Positions 3,413 to 30,412 of a stretch of 64,000 bases of DNA are shown here, in pieces. Source of the stretch: a virus; the IMG/VR virus record IMGVR_UViG_3300031977_001585, positions 14,535-78,534 of that record; one strand, given 5' to 3'. The position numbers and the translations under genes were made by a program. Under the pieces are notes generated by a model, which saw only the letters and a list, made by a program, of their open reading frames with translations, made no database searches and was not told where the DNA came from. Numbering within the stretch: position 1 is the first letter of the stretch; the number at the start of each line of letters is the position of its first letter.

Positions 3413-4762
3413 CTATATTGTAATGACAACTTTAATGTCTTCCTGCTGCTCGGCATCCCTACGAATGCGTGAACGGTTCTCGATGTAAAGAACATCACCA
3501 CTATGTCTATCTATCTCGTACTTATCAGTCTTTAGTGTGATAGAGGATGGGGTAGTCCCATCGGTAACACCTTCGTTTTCATCGAATGGAATAAATCCGG
3601 TCGACTCGTTTTGGTGATAGAACACGAACTCATCAACAGACTCGTTAACGTATGCACGTGCACCACTGTTCTCTTGATAGATGACATCCCCAGACTTATA
3701 TGGAGACGAACTAGTTAGAGTCAATGACGACATGACCTTACCGGACACATGAGTGTATGGTTGACCTTCTGGTGTCAGTGGGTTCTTGATGACACCGATC
3801 TGACGGAATGTGTTTTCGACGATGAAGGTGTTGCCTTCTTTACCGTCTGGTTTGATGTTCAGTAGCACTGAACTTGTTTTTAAATCATCTACTGGATCAG
3901 CACCAAGACCTGACGGTGGAGTGATCACGGCACGGACAACACATGGTTCAGTGTTAGCACCTACAATCTCTAGGGTTGCTTCTGTGTATCCTGCACCAAA
4001 CTCAATCATGCGAACACCGACGACAGATCCGTTATATACGATTGCTTCTGCCGTAGCCTCGGTTGTGCCGTCACCGTGAACGGTTACCGTGGTGGATTCT
4101 TGAGTGTACCCAGCACCACCTGATATAACCTCACCACGAAGAATCTCACCACCGACTGCGGCATTCATTACGTTCAATTGTAGATCTTCAATCCCGTCTG
4201 CGTTACACTTAGAGGTAGGTCCAGTTAGACCCACTGGGATGTGGTTGGTTGATAGGTACTGATAGATGTTTTGTGGTGTCAGTGCAAACAGGAACTTCCA
4301 AACGTAGTTGTCTGCTGTCCTAAACGGTTTCTTGTAGTCGACGTTTAGTTCGCAGTAGTTTGGTTCGATAGTCGATGGGATTGTTTGACCATCGTATCGA
4401 GTCCCTTGCTCAAGGCATAGGTATACCTCTTTCGCACTGTTCATCACGAAAAAGTTTGTTGCTTCGTCTGCATTGACGTTATCTGACCATGCGTCGTAGA
4501 TGTCGTTTGCATTCCAGTTAACACGTGTTGCGACGAAGATTGCACCTTCGACTTTCTTGATAGACTGAAGGTTGTGTCTGAATTCTCGTTCTTCTAAGGA
4601 ACCATCAATAGGAGTATACGGATGATCTACGTCATCCCCCGATGTTGGGAATACATCCGACTTACCAATGCCGATGTAGTACTCATTGCTAGAGTTGATG
4701 ACATCCTCAAGAAACTGTCGAGCCAGAGTTCGACTCAATGTTTGTCTGACAATTGCTGGCAT
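3413..4762 (-). CDS. gp8: Baseplate wedge subunit, T4 gp8-like
   Basis: YYIGIGKS, YVWKFLFAL and C-terminal GDVLYIENRSRIRR..QQEDIKVVI motifs; baseplate context. Confidence 0.85.
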   Translation of the reverse strand: MPAIVRQTLSRTLARQFLEDVINSSNEYYIGIGKSDVFPTSGDDVDHPYTPIDGSLEEREFRHNLQSIKKVEGAIFVATRVNWNANDIYDAWSDNVNADEATNFFVMNSAKEVYLCLEQGTRYDGQTIPSTIEPNYCELNVDYKKPFRTADNYVWKFLFALTPQNIYQYLSTNHIPVGLTGPTSKCNADGIEDLQLNVMNAAVGGEILRGEVISGGAGYTQESTTVTVHGDGTTEATAEAIVYNGSVVGVRMIEFGAGYTEATLEIVGANTEPCVVRAVITPPSGLGADPVDDLKTSSVLLNIKPDGKEGNTFIVENTFRQIGVIKNPLTPEGQPYTHVSGKVMSSLTLTSSSPYKSGDVIYQENSGARAYVNESVDEFVFYHQNESTGFIPFDENEGVTDGTTPSSITLKTDKYEIDRHSGDVLYIENRSRIRRDAEQQEDIKVVITI

Positions 4763-27425: not shown

Positions 27426-27572
27426 TTAAAACCCGTTGTTTGGATATAACTTATCCTCGGGGTAACCACGTTTCTTTACTTCTTTCTTACGATCGATGTG
27501 GGTAGATGGCCGATTGAACTTCGGAGCATTCTTTGCTACCGGATTCGATCGTCTGGTAGACTTCTTCTTCAT
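27426..27572 (-). CDS. Small basic protein (48 aa)
   Basis: MKKKSTRRSNPVAKNAPKFNRPSTHIDRKKEVKKRGY; NPVAK..KFN....H.DRKK type of phage protein. The start is shortened relative to the track. Confidence 0.6.
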   Translation of the reverse strand: MKKKSTRRSNPVAKNAPKFNRPSTHIDRKKEVKKRGYPEDKLYPNNGF

Positions 27573-27972
27573 AACGATATGCTTCTTCTTCCCAAGGTTG
27601 ATCAGCATACCCGACGTTAACGTACTCGACTCCGTCGAAGATATGCTTGTAAACAATACTGTGCCTCTGGTCACACCAAGTCAAACCGATGTGGAGCAGT
27701 CGACCCGTGAGGATCTGAACTGCGTGAATCAGTTCGTGTGCGATATGCACTTTCAATTGAGTATCGTCGACATCGTTGGTTCGCAATCGGACATCGACAC
27801 GATCCTCTGTACCGTCTGCCTCACCCGAAAAGATTCCGATATCATCGGCAAAGGACACCTTGATGTATCCTCCTAAACGACCAATCCCAAGTGACTCCGC
27901 ACAACGAAACACGTAGTCAGAGATCTCGAAACTGGGAGAGTCCTCGACGATGACGTTCTCTGCAATATTCAC
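27487..27972 (-). CDS. HExxH zinc metallopeptidase-like protein
   Basis: IAHELIHAVQ and Y.DQPWEEEAY. Confidence 0.7.
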   Translation of the reverse strand: MNIAENVIVEDSPSFEISDYVFRCAESLGIGRLGGYIKVSFADDIGIFSGEADGTEDRVDVRLRTNDVDDTQLKVHIAHELIHAVQILTGRLLHIGLTWCDQRHSIVYKHIFDGVEYVNVGYADQPWEEEAYRYEEEVYQTIESGSKECSEVQSAIYPHRS

Positions 27973-28199: not shown

Positions 28200-28360
28200 T
28201 ACTGATCTCCTTTCATTTCGTGACGGTACTCTCTCTTCAACCACCACTTGTACATTCTAAAATATTCTGCTGAATCGTAGAGGGGACTGCGACCCGTGAA
28301 CTGTGTCACTTCGTCGCAGTGCTCGTACCACTTCTGACTACACCAATGACGGAAACTCAT
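28199..28360 (-). CDS. Small W/Y-rich hypothetical protein (53 aa)
   Basis: Not in the track: MSFRHWCSQKWYEHCDEVTQFTGRSPLYDSAEYFRMYKWWLKREYRHEMKGDQ; TAATG overlaps on both sides. Confidence 0.7.
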   Translation of the reverse strand: MSFRHWCSQKWYEHCDEVTQFTGRSPLYDSAEYFRMYKWWLKREYRHEMKGDQ

Positions 28361-28914
28361 TATGCGTACCAACTACGGTAGAAGTCTTTGCCTTCTTCGG
28401 CAGGACTAGCATATCGAACGTCGTCGATGTTGATGCCACGACCAGTGATTCGTTTCTTGAACTCAGCACCGATGAACTCATCCTTGACAGGAACGACACG
28501 GTCACTCATGAAACCTTCACTACCCTCAACAGAGGCAACCGCAATCTCACGCAGAGTAACAGTCGCACCCTTCTTGGCAACAACCTGGTAAGCATCAATG
28601 TTAGTCTGCTCCCAACCCCAAGACGCAACGTAGAGATCACCTTCCTTGACACTCTCAAGGGCAGCTGCCTTAGCAACAGCACGGGCAATCTTACGATCTT
28701 GCTTCTGAACTTCAGCACGATCAAGATCAACAAGGAACTGCTCAACGTGCTCGATCATGCGAGCAACACTACCGTAACGGTAAGCAAACTCAGTCTTGTA
28801 ACCCAGACGGGCACGTTTGCTAGGACGTTGACAAACCGCAGTGATCTTATCTTCGTCGATGTTCAACTCAAGACCACGTGCTTCGTACTTCTCAATCAAT
28901 GTTTTCATAATCAA
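28360..28914 (-). CDS. Early hypothetical protein
   Basis: First gene behind an early promoter; SWGWEQTNIDAYQVV motif common in phage early ORFs. Confidence 0.7.
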   Translation of the reverse strand: MIMKTLIEKYEARGLELNIDEDKITAVCQRPSKRARLGYKTEFAYRYGSVARMIEHVEQFLVDLDRAEVQKQDRKIARAVAKAAALESVKEGDLYVASWGWEQTNIDAYQVVAKKGATVTLREIAVASVEGSEGFMSDRVVPVKDEFIGAEFKKRITGRGINIDDVRYASPAEEGKDFYRSWYA

Positions 28915-28937: not shown

Positions 28938-28975
28938 ATTATAGCAAATCTGGAACAAATGTCAACACTTTTTTA
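28938..28975 (-). promoter_or_regulatory. Sigma70-type early promoter
   Basis: A-tract, GTGTTGACA-N16-TATAAT. Confidence 0.8.
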
Positions 28976-28983
28976 AAACTTTT

Positions 28984-29220
28984 TTATGGTAATTTCTCAC
29001 AATAGATCGGATCTATTTTTCGTTCAACAATCTCCATCGCACATGGGTCACTGGCAAAAACCTTCCAAGTCCCATCGTACTGACTTGCAATCGTGATCTC
29101 GAACTCCTCTCCGTAAACGTCATACGCCTCAAACTTGAACTCGTAGAAGATGTTAGGTTCTCCTAATCGTTCTACTAACCGTTCATAAGACGCATCAATA
29201 TATCCCTGTAAACAACTCAT
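28984..29220 (-). CDS. Hypothetical protein
   Basis: GAGGT SD; LQGYIDASYERLVERLGEP motif. Confidence 0.65.
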   Translation of the reverse strand: MSCLQGYIDASYERLVERLGEPNIFYEFKFEAYDVYGEEFEITIASQYDGTWKVFASDPCAMEIVERKIDPIYCEKLP

Positions 29221-29231
29221 GACAACCTCAC

Positions 29232-29398
29232 TGGGGAAAGGAGAAACAGTGAACCCCGAAGGTTCCTAGTCGAGAGACTCCTGATCTCCTCAAAACTGAG
29301 GGGAGAAACAGTGAACCGTAGTTCCTATTCCGACTCCAGATGTCCCTGGGGGACAAGCAGTGGACCGAAGTCCCTAGTCGTGAGTCCAGATCTCCCCA
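29232..29398 (-). ncRNA. Putative structured non-coding RNA of three tandem modules
   Basis: Three copies of A-UC(U/A)GG-N9..12-AG-GRAC(UNCG)GUYC-ACUG-YU with compensatory changes, starting right after a sigma70 promoter. Confidence 0.65.
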
Positions 29399-29411
29399 AC
29401 TCACAATACAC

Positions 29412-29448
29412 ATTGTACCTGTTTTGGAAACAAAGTCAACACTTTTTT
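29412..29448 (-). promoter_or_regulatory. Sigma70-type early promoter driving the structured RNA
   Basis: AAAAAAGTGTTGACT-N16-TACAAT. Confidence 0.8.
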
Positions 29449-29462
29449 GACTATTTCTTAGA

Positions 29463-30080
29463 CTATTTTGTTATATCAAAATTACTTTTTATAGGAGCAC
29501 GTTCGACTGCCTTCAACCATGCCACGGGTTCTTTGATCACTGGTCGAGTGTACTTCAGTTTATGCTTTCGGAACGATTCCTTTAGACCCTTTGCTTCCGC
29601 CTGACCTAGGAACCGTGACACCAGTTTGAGCAGTGCCCAACGGAACCGATAGTCGTGACGATTGAATCCTGCAGCATGTGCCAGTTCATGTAGGATCACG
29701 TACTTGTTGGTTCCCGACTGACTGTCGAGTTTGATCATATTACCATAGCAGAGACCTGCCCATGACCTCGACTTGAATTCATAGAGATTGACTTTCTTGT
29801 ATGCCTTGCGAACACGTCGCATGTCCATATCGTCGTTAGCAAACTGCTCCCACAGTTTAGACTTGAGCACTCGTTTCACAAACTTCTCGCAGTCTTTGAA
29901 CTCCATCCTCTCTCGCACGTGGGGAAAGTTCTGCTCGAAGTCCCACTCTGCATTGTAGGTCTTTTGACGTTGAGAGTCACGGGTTGGTAGTCGAGACTTG
30001 CGGCGGACATAGTCGTCGTAGTCCCATGCTTGGGTCTTGGTCAGACCCGCAGAAATTGCTTTGCGATATGCTACTGTCAT
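29463..30080 (-). CDS. HExxH metallopeptidase-like protein (SprT-like)
   Basis: RDSQRQKTYNAE, VILHELAH....H...F. Confidence 0.7.
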   Translation of the reverse strand: MTVAYRKAISAGLTKTQAWDYDDYVRRKSRLPTRDSQRQKTYNAEWDFEQNFPHVRERMEFKDCEKFVKRVLKSKLWEQFANDDMDMRRVRKAYKKVNLYEFKSRSWAGLCYGNMIKLDSQSGTNKYVILHELAHAAGFNRHDYRFRWALLKLVSRFLGQAEAKGLKESFRKHKLKYTRPVIKEPVAWLKAVERAPIKSNFDITK

Positions 30081-30412
30081 GCCTTCTTCTTTCTCACCGT
30101 CTTCTTAACCGGAGTCTTCTTGACAACTGCCTTCTTCTTGGCAACTGCTTTCTTCTTGGTAGGTGCCTTTCTTTTGGTGGGTGCCTTCTTCTTGGGGGGT
30201 TCCCAAGTCTTTGCGAGGAACTCCTCAACGGACAACCCACACTCACGAAGTGCTTTGTGAAATCTCTTTACGTCCGACATCTCCCATGAGTTGTTAATGA
30301 ACGATCCAAAGTGGTCTGCTACTTTATCACCCAACTGAATGTTTTCTTCAGTCTCTTTATCGAAGATGTAGCGCACCTTCTTGGTGAAGTTTAACTTGAC
30401 GATTTTAGACAT
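30077..30412 (-). CDS. Protein with histone H1-like Lys/Ala-rich C-terminal tail
   Basis: KKKAPTKRKAPTKKKAVAKKKAVVKKTPVKKTVRKKKA. Confidence 0.7.
   Translation of the reverse strand: MSKIVKLNFTKKVRYIFDKETEENIQLGDKVADHFGSFINNSWEMSDVKRFHKALRECGLSVEEFLAKTWEPPKKKAPTKRKAPTKKKAVAKKKAVVKKTPVKKTVRKKKA

What the first reader, a model, noticed from the sequence alone, without database searches (positions are those of the whole stretch)
29232..29398. Promoter-proximal non-coding RNA made of three tandem structured modules
Seen on the minus strand right after TTGACT-N16-TACAAT. Module A: GGGGAGA-UCUGG-ACUCACGACU-AG-GGAC(UUCG)GUCC-ACUG-CU-UGUCCC. Module B: GGGACA-UCUGG-AGUCGGAAU-AG-GAAC(UACG)GUUC-ACUG-UU-UCUCC. 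Module C: GAGGAGA-UCAGG-AGUCUCUCGACU-AG-GAACC(UUCG)GGGUUC-ACUG-UU-UCUCC. The hairpins covary (GGAC/GUCC versus GAAC/GUUC) and keep cUNCGg loops. The flanking stems pair between modules: UGUCCC/GGGACA joins A-B, UCUCC..UCA/UGAGGAGA joins B-C, and 5' UGGGGAGA can close with 3' UUUCCCCA, giving a ring of three equivalent junctions. The variable loops are mutually complementary (GACUC/GAGUC, CGACU/AGUCG), so kissing contacts are possible. No U-tract follows, and I do not recognise a known family. Inference: an immediate-early multivalent RNA. Candidates are a decoy for a host defence or regulatory protein (type III antitoxin mimic, Cas or CsrA sponge), a tandem aptamer controlling the downstream ORF whose SD abuts the closing stem, or a tandem ribozyme. 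This is the best candidate for an undescribed system.
Basis: partly seen in the sequence, partly recalled or inferred. Interest (0 to 1): 0.8.

Follow-up and report, generated by a model that had tools for sequence, protein, structure and literature searches.

The report
Three-way-junction RNA in phage early leader
A small, strongly conserved three-armed RNA fold, present here in three copies just after an early promoter of a T4-like phage, belongs to a family that matches no catalogued RNA family and whose job is still unknown.

Summary
On the minus strand, about 7-8 nt after the predicted start of a sigma70-type early promoter (29439-29412), lie three copies of a ~50-nt module (29397-29238). 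About 35 distinct relatives from T4-like phage contigs show that each module is a three-way junction. It has a closing helix P1, hairpins P2 and P3, and near-invariant junction strands U-CUGG / (U)AG / A-CUG-YU.

All helices covary. In 14 diverse single modules, 10 of 19 pairs carry compensatory changes (0 of 500 shuffles reach this).

Relatives carry one module, or two interlocked ones in which P2 forms between the modules and a covarying hairpin replaces the inner P1. The window holds such a double (A+B, closed by 29397-29391 with 29306-29300) plus a separately added single (C).

No Rfam family, tRNA, ToxN gene or reading frame fits. There is one locus per genome, close relatives lack it at the same promoter, and the downstream genes vary.

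Function is unproven. I favour an aptamer-like leader domain whose anti-SD-like P1 3' strand competes for the downstream SD (about 0.35). A ribozyme, a decoy RNA or an RNase barrier remain open. No transcript data could be obtained.

The parts
29412..29439 (-). Sigma70-type early promoter: -35 TTGACT (29439-29434), 16-nt spacer, -10 TACAAT (29417-29412). The predicted start lies near 29405.
   Evidence: 10 of 12 consensus. The same promoter-plus-leader cassette is found in all close relatives. The start site is inferred, not measured.
29300..29397 (-). Interlocked double module A+B. P1 is 29397-29391 paired with 29306-29300. The junction strands UCUGG are at 29390-29386 and 29340-29336. P2 forms between the modules (29385-29376 with 29335-29327). 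P3(A) is 29373-29362 and P3(B) is 29324-29313. The ACUG strands are at 29361-29358 and 29312-29309. The inner closing hairpin is 29355-29341.
   Evidence: 20 distinct doubles share this fold: P1 99%, inner hairpin 100%, P3 99% and P2 91% standard pairs, with compensatory changes in every helix.
29238..29291 (-). Single module C. P1 is 29291-29285 paired with 29244-29238. UCAGG is at 29284-29280, the local P2 hairpin at 29279-29268, AG at 29267-29266, P3 at 29265-29251, and ACUG-UU at 29250-29245.
   Evidence: the MFE is this three-way junction; 72 bits. Module C is absent from the nearest relative L244.
29292..29299 (-). Spacer between the A+B unit and module C. Together with 29291-29287 it repeats the leader and SD (UUUUGAGG) that precede the start codon in relative L244.
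   Evidence: That this is the junction of an insertion or duplication is an inference.
29218..29237 (-). Pyrimidine-rich tail, SD GAGG (29229-29226) and ATG (29220-29218) of the 78-aa early gene (28984-29220).
   Evidence: The gene is conserved in relatives both with and without the RNA element.

Best explanation
What it is (high confidence, about 0.9): a new family of compact RNA modules made from the first ~170 nt of a phage early transcript. Each module is a three-way junction. P1 carries a U.U (or A.A, or G-U/C) position, a one-nucleotide bulge and a C-G / U.U / G-C extension. P2 and P3 are short hairpins whose loops are free to vary (UNCG, GNRA, CUUG). The junction strands (U)CUGG, (U)AG and ACUG-YU are almost invariant. 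Any arm can be closed by a loop or continued into a neighbour, so the function must sit in the junction core. The window has three cores: a dyad-symmetric double (A+B sharing P2) and a single (C).

How it most likely works (low confidence, about 0.35; inferred): each core is a specific binding pocket, aptamer-like, for a small ligand or a possibly dimeric protein. Occupancy stabilises P1. The P1 5' strand is SD-like (GGGGAGA, GAGGAGA) and the P1 3' strand is anti-SD-like (UCUCCCC). When P1 is formed, the anti-SD-like strand is locked away and the true SD 10-25 nt downstream is free. When P1 is open, that strand can mask the SD. The element would thus gate translation of the first gene of one early operon, and in a few relatives termination as well.

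Shown here: the fold, its conservation, its position and its copy-number variants. Inferred: transcription, binding and the switch.
For: Fold and family:
- 14 diverse single modules: 19 pairs, 86% standard pairs against 40-57% for slid controls, 10 pairs with changes on both sides, 0 of 500 shuffles as high.
- 13 doubles: 30 pairs, 94% paired, 10 compensatory pairs.
- 52 junctions parsed: P1 99%, P3 99% and inner hairpin 100% standard pairs.
- Divergent members change all three helices yet keep the junction strands: L473 (P1 GGGAU/AUCCC, P2 with a GAGA loop), the L429 group (P1 GAGAGG/CCUCUC) and L424 (8-bp P1).
- Fifteen G-U cells in the doubles make the fold specific to this strand.
- Single-module lengths of 51-57 nt exclude a conserved reading frame.

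Position: always the same orientation as the downstream genes. In the main clade P1 starts 13-14 nt after the -10 hexamer.

Switch idea: forbidding the P1 5' strand from pairing lowers the predicted probability that the SD is unpaired. The drops are window 0.39 to 0.01, L026 0.71 to 0.02, L244 0.59 to 0.04, L108 0.45 to 0.03 and L031 0.75 to 0.26.

Tandem aptamers and junction-core pockets are the usual anatomy of riboswitches (own knowledge).
Against: - The downstream genes differ: 78 aa, 184 aa, 175 aa, an HNH endonuclease, an SprT-like protein and a small membrane protein. None has a known pathway, unlike typical riboswitches.
- The SD effect is absent in about half of the leaders (L048, L114, L029, L178, L282). 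It is also partly trivial, because any CU-rich strand complements an SD.
- In three lineages a terminator-like hairpin follows the element. That would imply the opposite regulatory logic.
- One locus per genome with its own consensus promoter also fits a free-standing RNA gene.
- There are no distal tertiary contacts (loop-loop or pseudoknot) of the kind most natural aptamers have.
- No ligand, protein partner or transcript evidence exists.
- The junction 'invariance' is partly ascertainment, because most relatives were fetched with patterns containing those motifs. One group does have AA instead of AG (L431).
Confidence: 0.35

Rival explanations
1. Free-standing early non-coding RNA that acts in trans as a decoy or sponge. 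It would be made at high level from its own consensus promoter and cut from or terminated before the mRNA. Each junction core would titrate a host protein, for example a defence or RNA-metabolism factor. Copy number (1, 2 or 3 cores) would set the capacity, and the dyad-symmetric double would suit a dimeric protein.
For: - One locus per genome, always with its own strong promoter.
- Independence from the identity of the next gene.
- Presence/absence polymorphism at the same promoter in close relatives, as for accessory counter-defence genes.
- Copy-number variation.
- In L034, L248 and L443 a long hairpin plus a U6 run follows the element before the next SD, which would give a discrete RNA.
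Against: - In most members the next start codon is only 15-31 nt away, with no terminator.
- No partner is known.
- It does not resemble ToxI-type repeats, a CsrA sponge or any Rfam family.
- Similarity to a host CRISPR repeat cannot be tested because the host is unknown.
Confidence: 0.2
2. A new class of small self-cleaving ribozyme, or a processing signal for a nuclease. It would be a three-helix junction with a conserved core that cuts the leader and gives the early mRNA a new 5' end.
For: - A conserved junction core with freely varying helices.
- Tolerance to closing any arm with a loop, much as hammerhead types I-III are circular permutations (own knowledge).
- No gene association, and a phage context where hammerhead, twister, pistol and HDV-like ribozymes are common (own knowledge).
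- for the anatomy.
Against: - No match to any ribozyme family in Rfam even at E up to 10.
- Hammerhead core motifs are absent.
- There are no tertiary loop contacts or pseudoknot of the kind that natural fast ribozymes use.
- Interlocked doubles would be cut into pieces that stay base-paired.
- Cleavage could not be tested.
Confidence: 0.15
3. A passive but very stable 5' roadblock. The compact junction with UNCG-capped arms would protect the early mRNA from 5'-end-dependent decay (RNase E scanning, or a 5'-3' exonuclease in hosts that have one). More copies would give more protection.
For: - Position within about 10 nt of the predicted 5' end in the main clade.
- Ultra-stable tetraloops.
- Tandem copies, as with exonuclease-resistant RNAs of flaviviruses (own knowledge).
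Against: - Simple stability does not explain near-invariant junction nucleotides.
- Only one of many early promoters per genome carries it.
- In L473 it lies about 110 nt from the promoter, after a 19-codon ORF.
- About 7 unpaired nucleotides remain at the 5' end.
Confidence: 0.1
4. A nascent-RNA modifier of transcription elongation (like HK022 put RNA, or an anti-Rho element). It would act in cis on the polymerase that makes it, to read through terminators of the early operon.
For: - Promoter-proximal, and independent of the next gene.
- One per genome.
- Followed by a C-rich, G-poor tract.
- In three lineages a terminator-like hairpin lies directly downstream.
- putL also lies just downstream of an early promoter (PMC9378689).
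Against: - put RNA is about 70 nt with two long stem-loops and a triplex (PMC9378689), a different fold.
- One polymerase has one exit channel, so 1-3 copies are hard to explain.
- Most members have no terminator nearby.
Confidence: 0.08
5. One reading: a ring of three equivalent junctions acting as a type III antitoxin mimic or a CsrA/Cas sponge.
For: The complementarities exist in this one sequence, and the ring fold is energetically competitive (-65 against -62 kcal/mol).
Against: - 20 doubles and about 17 distinct single-module sequences close on themselves.
- The nearest relative has A+B only.
- The modules are not near-identical repeats.
- No ToxN-family gene was found (though the control genomes were silent too).
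- There are no GGA motifs in hairpin loops, and the AGGA at the junction is AGGG in 17% of cores.
Confidence: 0.02

Closest known systems
Small tandem riboswitch aptamers (for example glycine, or the glutamine glnA RNA of marine cyanobacteria and cyanophages)
   Same: A compact multi-helix junction with a conserved core, a 5' leader position, frequent tandem copies and occurrence in marine phage DNA (own knowledge).
   Different: No hit to those or any other Rfam model. There is no E-loop or pseudoknot, no consistent downstream gene class and no known ligand. The doubles share a helix (P2) rather than lying side by side.
Hammerhead ribozyme
   Same: Three helices around a conserved junction. 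Any helix may be the open one, and it is common in phage DNA (own knowledge).
   Different: The core strands differ: U-CUGG, AG and A-CUG-YU here, against CUGANGA, GAAA and NUH. No Rfam hit was found. Cleavage is untested.
HK022 put RNA (PMC9378689)
   Same: A phage RNA element just downstream of an early promoter that works without its own ORF.
   Different: put is about 70 nt with two long stem-loops in a V shape and a triplex, from a lambdoid phage. The element here is a 50-nt three-way junction in T4-like phages, present in 1-3 copies.
Type III antitoxin RNAs (ToxI) and phage pseudo-ToxI mimics
   Same: Tandem structured RNA units, and phages can carry mimics (own knowledge).
   Different: ToxI units are near-identical 34-45-nt direct repeats that are cut apart and lie next to a ToxN-family gene. 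Here the modules differ, interlock and covary as one fold, and no ToxN-family gene was found.
PeSL promoter/stem-loop cassettes of T4-like phages (PMC2839356, PMC4122927)
   Same: The same genomic setting: conserved early promoters in hyperplastic regions whose recombination shuffles the adjacent small genes. This explains why the gene after the element varies. L473 has classic PeSL hairpins abutting its -35 hexamers.
   Different: The PeSL stem-loop is a simple terminator-like hairpin upstream of the promoter. This element is a complex junction downstream of it and occurs once per genome.

Membership tests
Any Rfam 15 family (riboswitches, ribozymes, sRNAs, leaders) | Score at or near the family's gathering threshold | tested here: not met
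   There were 0 hits at gathering level in the 64-kb window. At E up to 10, on the window element and on two relatives, only unrelated chance hits of 8-15 bits appeared.
tRNA / tmRNA-like | Cloverleaf recognised by ARAGORN | tested here: not met
   No gene was found in the window or in L034.
Riboswitch | Conserved aptamer with covarying helices in a 5' leader | tested here: met
   The leader position rests on a predicted promoter.
Riboswitch | Expression platform that overlaps the aptamer | tested here: inconclusive
   The P1 3' strand can mask the SD in about half of the leaders. No consistent platform exists, and a terminator-like hairpin occurs in only three lineages.
Riboswitch | Consistent association with genes of one pathway | tested here: not met
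   At least eight different downstream genes, none with an informative Pfam or PHROG match.
Riboswitch | Direct ligand binding | not testable with these tools
   This needs in-line probing or ITC.
Self-cleaving ribozyme | Site-specific self-cleavage | not testable with these tools
No known ribozyme class matches.
Type III antitoxin (ToxI-like) or its mimic | Near-identical tandem direct repeats of 34-45 nt that fold independently | tested here: not met
   Modules A, B and C differ in every helix. A and B share P2 and depend on each other.
Type III antitoxin (ToxI-like) or its mimic | Adjacent ToxN/AbiQ-family toxin gene | tested here: not met
   No PF13958 match in G000, G001, G003 or G006 (the control genomes did not ring either). 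The neighbours have no such family. A mimic of a host antitoxin cannot be excluded without knowing the host.
CsrA/RsmA sponge | Multiple GGA motifs presented in hairpin loops | tested here: not met
   The loops are UNCG, CUUG or GNRA. The only recurrent GGA spans the junction and the first P3 pair, and it is GGG in 9 of 52 cores.
HK022 put-type antiterminator RNA | About 70 nt, two long stem-loops with a triplex, promoter-proximal | tested here: not met
   The position is similar. The fold differs: a closing helix plus two 3-5-bp hairpins (against PMC9378689).
PeSL | Terminator-like stem-loop immediately upstream of an early promoter | tested here: not met
   The element lies downstream of the -10 hexamer. 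Definition from PMC4122927.
Protein-coding ORF (61 aa, 29413-29228) | Reading frame conserved in relatives | tested here: not met
   The ATG lies inside the -10 hexamer. Relatives differ by 1-2-nt indels and by whole modules.

The most novel reading that the evidence does not exclude
The junction core is the active site of a new natural class: either a small-molecule aptamer (a new riboswitch class sensing host state at the onset of infection) or a new small self-cleaving ribozyme. A naturally occurring helix-swapped, dyad-symmetric dimer form would be used by T4-like marine phages in one immediate-early transcript.
Probability: 0.3. Interest if true: 0.85.

Novelty: new member of a known kind. 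Interest (0 to 1): 0.62.

Why it matters
It adds a well-supported, very small (about 45-55 nt) natural RNA fold with an almost invariant junction core and no catalogued relative. It is found only in the early, hyperplastic region of uncultured T4-like phages.

Its size, its tolerance to closing any arm, and its natural single, helix-swapped double and triple forms make it easy to test in vitro for cleavage, ligand binding or protein binding.

If the core binds a metabolite or cleaves itself, it is a new riboswitch or ribozyme class. If it titrates a host protein, it is a new kind of RNA counter-measure made in the first minute of infection. If it is only a stabiliser, it is still a compact natural insulator part.

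Tried and rejected
- Rfam at gathering and at permissive thresholds, on the window and on relatives: nothing.
- tRNA/tmRNA scan: nothing.
- Folding energy against shuffles: not significant for the whole element and only weakly so for the units. It was not used as evidence.
- blastn of the element and its flanks against cultured phages: no element found. The closest cultured relative, Phage C48C1, lacks it.
- Search with the upstream 205-aa protein: no related loci.
- Genome-contig scan: 120+ rows, essentially all chance. One true hit was a phage contig binned into a Porticoccaceae MAG.
- Fremin et al. 2023 catalogue of 10,006 viral structured RNAs (PMC10690425): no supplement is held, so membership could not be checked.
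- A literature search for 'C48C1' gave nothing relevant.
- RegB (a GGAG-specific nuclease) as a partner: no RegB was found in relatives, although the control genomes were silent too. RegA is present both with and without the element.
- Pairing of UCUGG with CUAGG as an extension of P2: rejected in favour of CUG/CUG pairing with J3/1. Module C's U-to-A change makes an A-U pair in the latter and breaks the former. This rests on a single observation.
- Ring-of-three topology: the energy comparison is indecisive and the comparative evidence is against it.
- A DNA-level palindrome or iteron reading: rejected because of strand-specific G-U pairs and UNCG loops.
- Earlier scan notes by sequence: only this same stretch was found.

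Full report
**Observation.**
- A sigma70-type promoter lies at 29439-29412 (TTGACT, 16 nt, TACAAT).
- A second early promoter with a perfect consensus lies at 28965-28938 and has no such leader.
- A pattern for the module core occurs exactly three times in the 64-kb window, all here, against 0.08 expected.
- A covariance model built from relatives scores the three modules 72, 45 and 33.5 bits; nothing else scores above 15.7 bits.
- Rfam 15 gives nothing at gathering level or at E up to 10, and ARAGORN gives nothing.

**Where it comes from.** The window is part of a 78.5-kb IMG/VR virus record, about 46% complete.
- The neighbouring 184-aa gene (28360-28914) retrieves 79 related viral loci. It also retrieves one cultured relative, Phage C48C1 (156 kb, filed under Kyanoviridae), where gp33- and gp32-like genes lie a few kb downstream.
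- RegA is present in relatives.
- An earlier scan note had called the genome a T4-like myovirus. These results agree with that note.

**The family.** I used regular expressions on the protein-anchored loci. I also ran five pattern scans of the viral collection, one of metagenomes and one of genomes.
- After filtering out chance hits, these give about 17 distinct single-module sequences, 21 distinct double-module sequences and one triple. The triple is the window.
- All lie in the orientation of the downstream genes.
- In the main clade P1 begins 13-14 nt after the -10 hexamer (TATAAT or TGnGATAAT types). That is about 7-8 nt after the predicted start.
- There is one locus per genome: a 160-kb, 93%-complete record has one; 106-kb, 37-kb, 32-kb, 30-kb and 25-kb records have one each; C48C1 and a 116-kb record have none.
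- Close relatives L002, L007 and L015 have the same promoter and the same 78-aa gene but no element. It is therefore an accessory insertion or deletion.

**The fold.** Single modules read: P1 (7 bp) - U - CUG - G - [N, P2 hairpin, U] - AG - [P3 hairpin] - A - CUG - Y - U - P1'.
- In 14 diverse singles, 19 modelled pairs are 86% standard, against 40-57% when the 3' partner is slid. Ten pairs carry changes on both sides, and no shuffle of 500 reaches the observed covariation.
- P1 changes wholesale: the common GGGGAGA/UCUCCCC is replaced by other complementary pairs in L429, L443, L424, L426, L473 and L029.
- P2 alternates between GUC/GAC, GCGA/UCGC and GCC/GGC.
- P3 changes at three of its four outer pairs.
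- The loops are UUCG, UACG, CUCG, CUUG, GAGA and others.
- The junction strands hardly change. The position next to P1 is U.U, A.A, G-U or G-C, followed by a one-nucleotide bulge. CUG faces CUG (C-G, U.U, G-C), and in window module C the U.U becomes A-U.
- Caveat: most relatives were fetched with patterns containing CTGG, TAGG and CACTG, so the invariance is partly built in. Still, the roughly 11 distinct elements found through the protein gene alone show the same core. A covariance search of the element-less protein-anchored loci found no divergent copies. One group has AA for AG.

**Doubles.** In 20 distinct doubles the 'variable' segment of module 1 pairs with that of module 2 over 7-9 bp.
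- Examples with compensatory changes are CUCAAC/GUUGAG, CCCGACU/AGUUGGG and CCUGAUU/AAUCAGG.
- The segment between the modules is a hairpin that covaries at three of its four outer pairs.
- The outer ends form P1.
- Written as a nested structure, this gives two three-way junctions of the same kind sitting at the two ends of P2. The unit is dyad-symmetric, with the inner junction closed by a hairpin in place of P1. MFE folds of the window's A+B and of L085 recover it.
- Fifteen G-U cells in the doubles would be A.C mismatches on the other strand, so the fold belongs to this strand.

**The window.** A+B form such a double, with P1 at 29397-29391 paired to 29306-29300. C is a self-contained single, with P1 at 29291-29285 paired to 29244-29238.
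- The nearest relative (L244) has the same A+B, with one compensatory change in the inner hairpin, followed directly by UUUUUGAGG-UUGUC-AUG.
- In the window the same UUUUGAGG precedes module C, and a second GUGAGG-UUGUC-AUG follows it. Module C therefore looks like a unit added at the SD, whose first strand it reuses as P1.
- Likewise, element-less relatives have GGUUGAGGAG-N8-AUG where element-bearing ones have GAGUUGGGGAGA followed by the element.
It has no comparative support.

**Context.** The downstream genes differ from case to case:
- the 78-aa gene and the 184-aa gene;
- a 175-aa gene, an HNH endonuclease and an SprT-like protein;
- a 68-aa membrane protein, and homologues of the window's 70-aa and 102-aa genes.

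None has an informative family. This is expected in the hyperplastic early regions of T4-like phages, where conserved promoter cassettes (PeSLs) mediate gene shuffling (PMC2839356, PMC4122927).

A divergent member (L473) comes from a different T4-like record with classic PeSL hairpins. There the element sits after a 19-codon ORF, about 110 nt from the promoter, and is followed by a long CA repeat. A position at the very 5' end is therefore not obligatory.

In three lineages (L034/L217, L248, L443) a long covarying hairpin with a U6 run lies between the element and the next SD.

**Function.** None of this was tested directly.
- Because every arm can be looped, lengthened or shared, the function must lie in the junction core. 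That is the anatomy of a specific binding pocket or a catalytic core.
- The P1 5' strand is SD-like and the P1 3' strand is anti-SD-like. Forbidding P1 in silico lowers SD accessibility sharply in about half of the leaders and not in the rest.
- I therefore rank a cis-acting binding (aptamer-like) leader first (0.35). Next come a trans-acting decoy RNA (0.2), a new self-cleaving ribozyme (0.15), a passive 5' roadblock (0.1) and a put-like or anti-Rho element (0.08).
- No transcript evidence could be obtained.

**Verdict.** This is a real, conserved, strand-specific structured RNA family that is not in Rfam. It is limited, as far as these searches reach, to uncultured T4-like phages. The function is open but cheaply testable.

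Noticed in passing
L034:2388-2455; also L217, L248 and L443 (about 4020-4110): A second structured element follows the three-way-junction RNA in some relatives. It is a long hairpin whose closing stem covaries (GUGGGG/CCCCAC against GACGGGG/CCCCGUC). It has an inner stem and a conserved ~30-nt loop, then a U6 run and the next SD. It looks like a terminator or attenuator and has no Rfam hit.
   Followed up: partly
window 29285-29299 and 29226-29233: The leader and SD (UUUUGAGG / GUGAGG) occur on both sides of module C. Element-less relatives have an SD exactly where P1 begins. The module seems to be inserted at, and to reuse, an SD.
   Followed up: partly
L002:2560-2730, L007, L015: Close relatives (83-91% identity in the neighbouring protein) keep the promoter and the 78-aa gene but lack the RNA element entirely. 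This is a clean presence/absence polymorphism.
   Followed up: yes
L473 (record G006), 1560-1850: A different T4-like record has PeSL-type cassettes (a CCCC-AUA-GGGG hairpin abutting TTGACA-17-TATAAT) repeated several times. Each is followed by a ~19-codon hydrophobic mini-ORF. A (CA)n microsatellite of about 40 nt follows the RNA element.
   Followed up: partly
window 29228-29413 (minus strand): A 61-aa ORF spans the whole element. Its ATG lies inside the -10 hexamer and the frame is not kept in relatives, so it is spurious.
   Followed up: yes
window 30077-30412 (minus strand): A 111-aa early protein has an extremely lysine-rich, histone-H1-like C-terminal tail. It has no family match and is a possible nucleic-acid binder, two genes upstream of the element.
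   Followed up: no
window 29463-30080 and 27487-27972 (minus strand): Two small proteins carry HExxH motifs with weak WLM/SprT-like or PHROG 10499/16532 matches. A homologue of the second is the gene directly downstream of the element in L132.
   Followed up: partly
L351 (JAYQEC010000010.1): A 36-kb contig carrying a double element is binned in a Porticoccaceae MAG. It is almost certainly a phage contig, and it is the only, weak, hint about the host.
   Followed up: no
window 28938-28965 (minus strand): A second early promoter with a perfect 12/12 consensus and a TG extension lies 450 nt downstream. It drives the 184-aa gene through a plain 30-nt leader without any structured element.
   Followed up: partly
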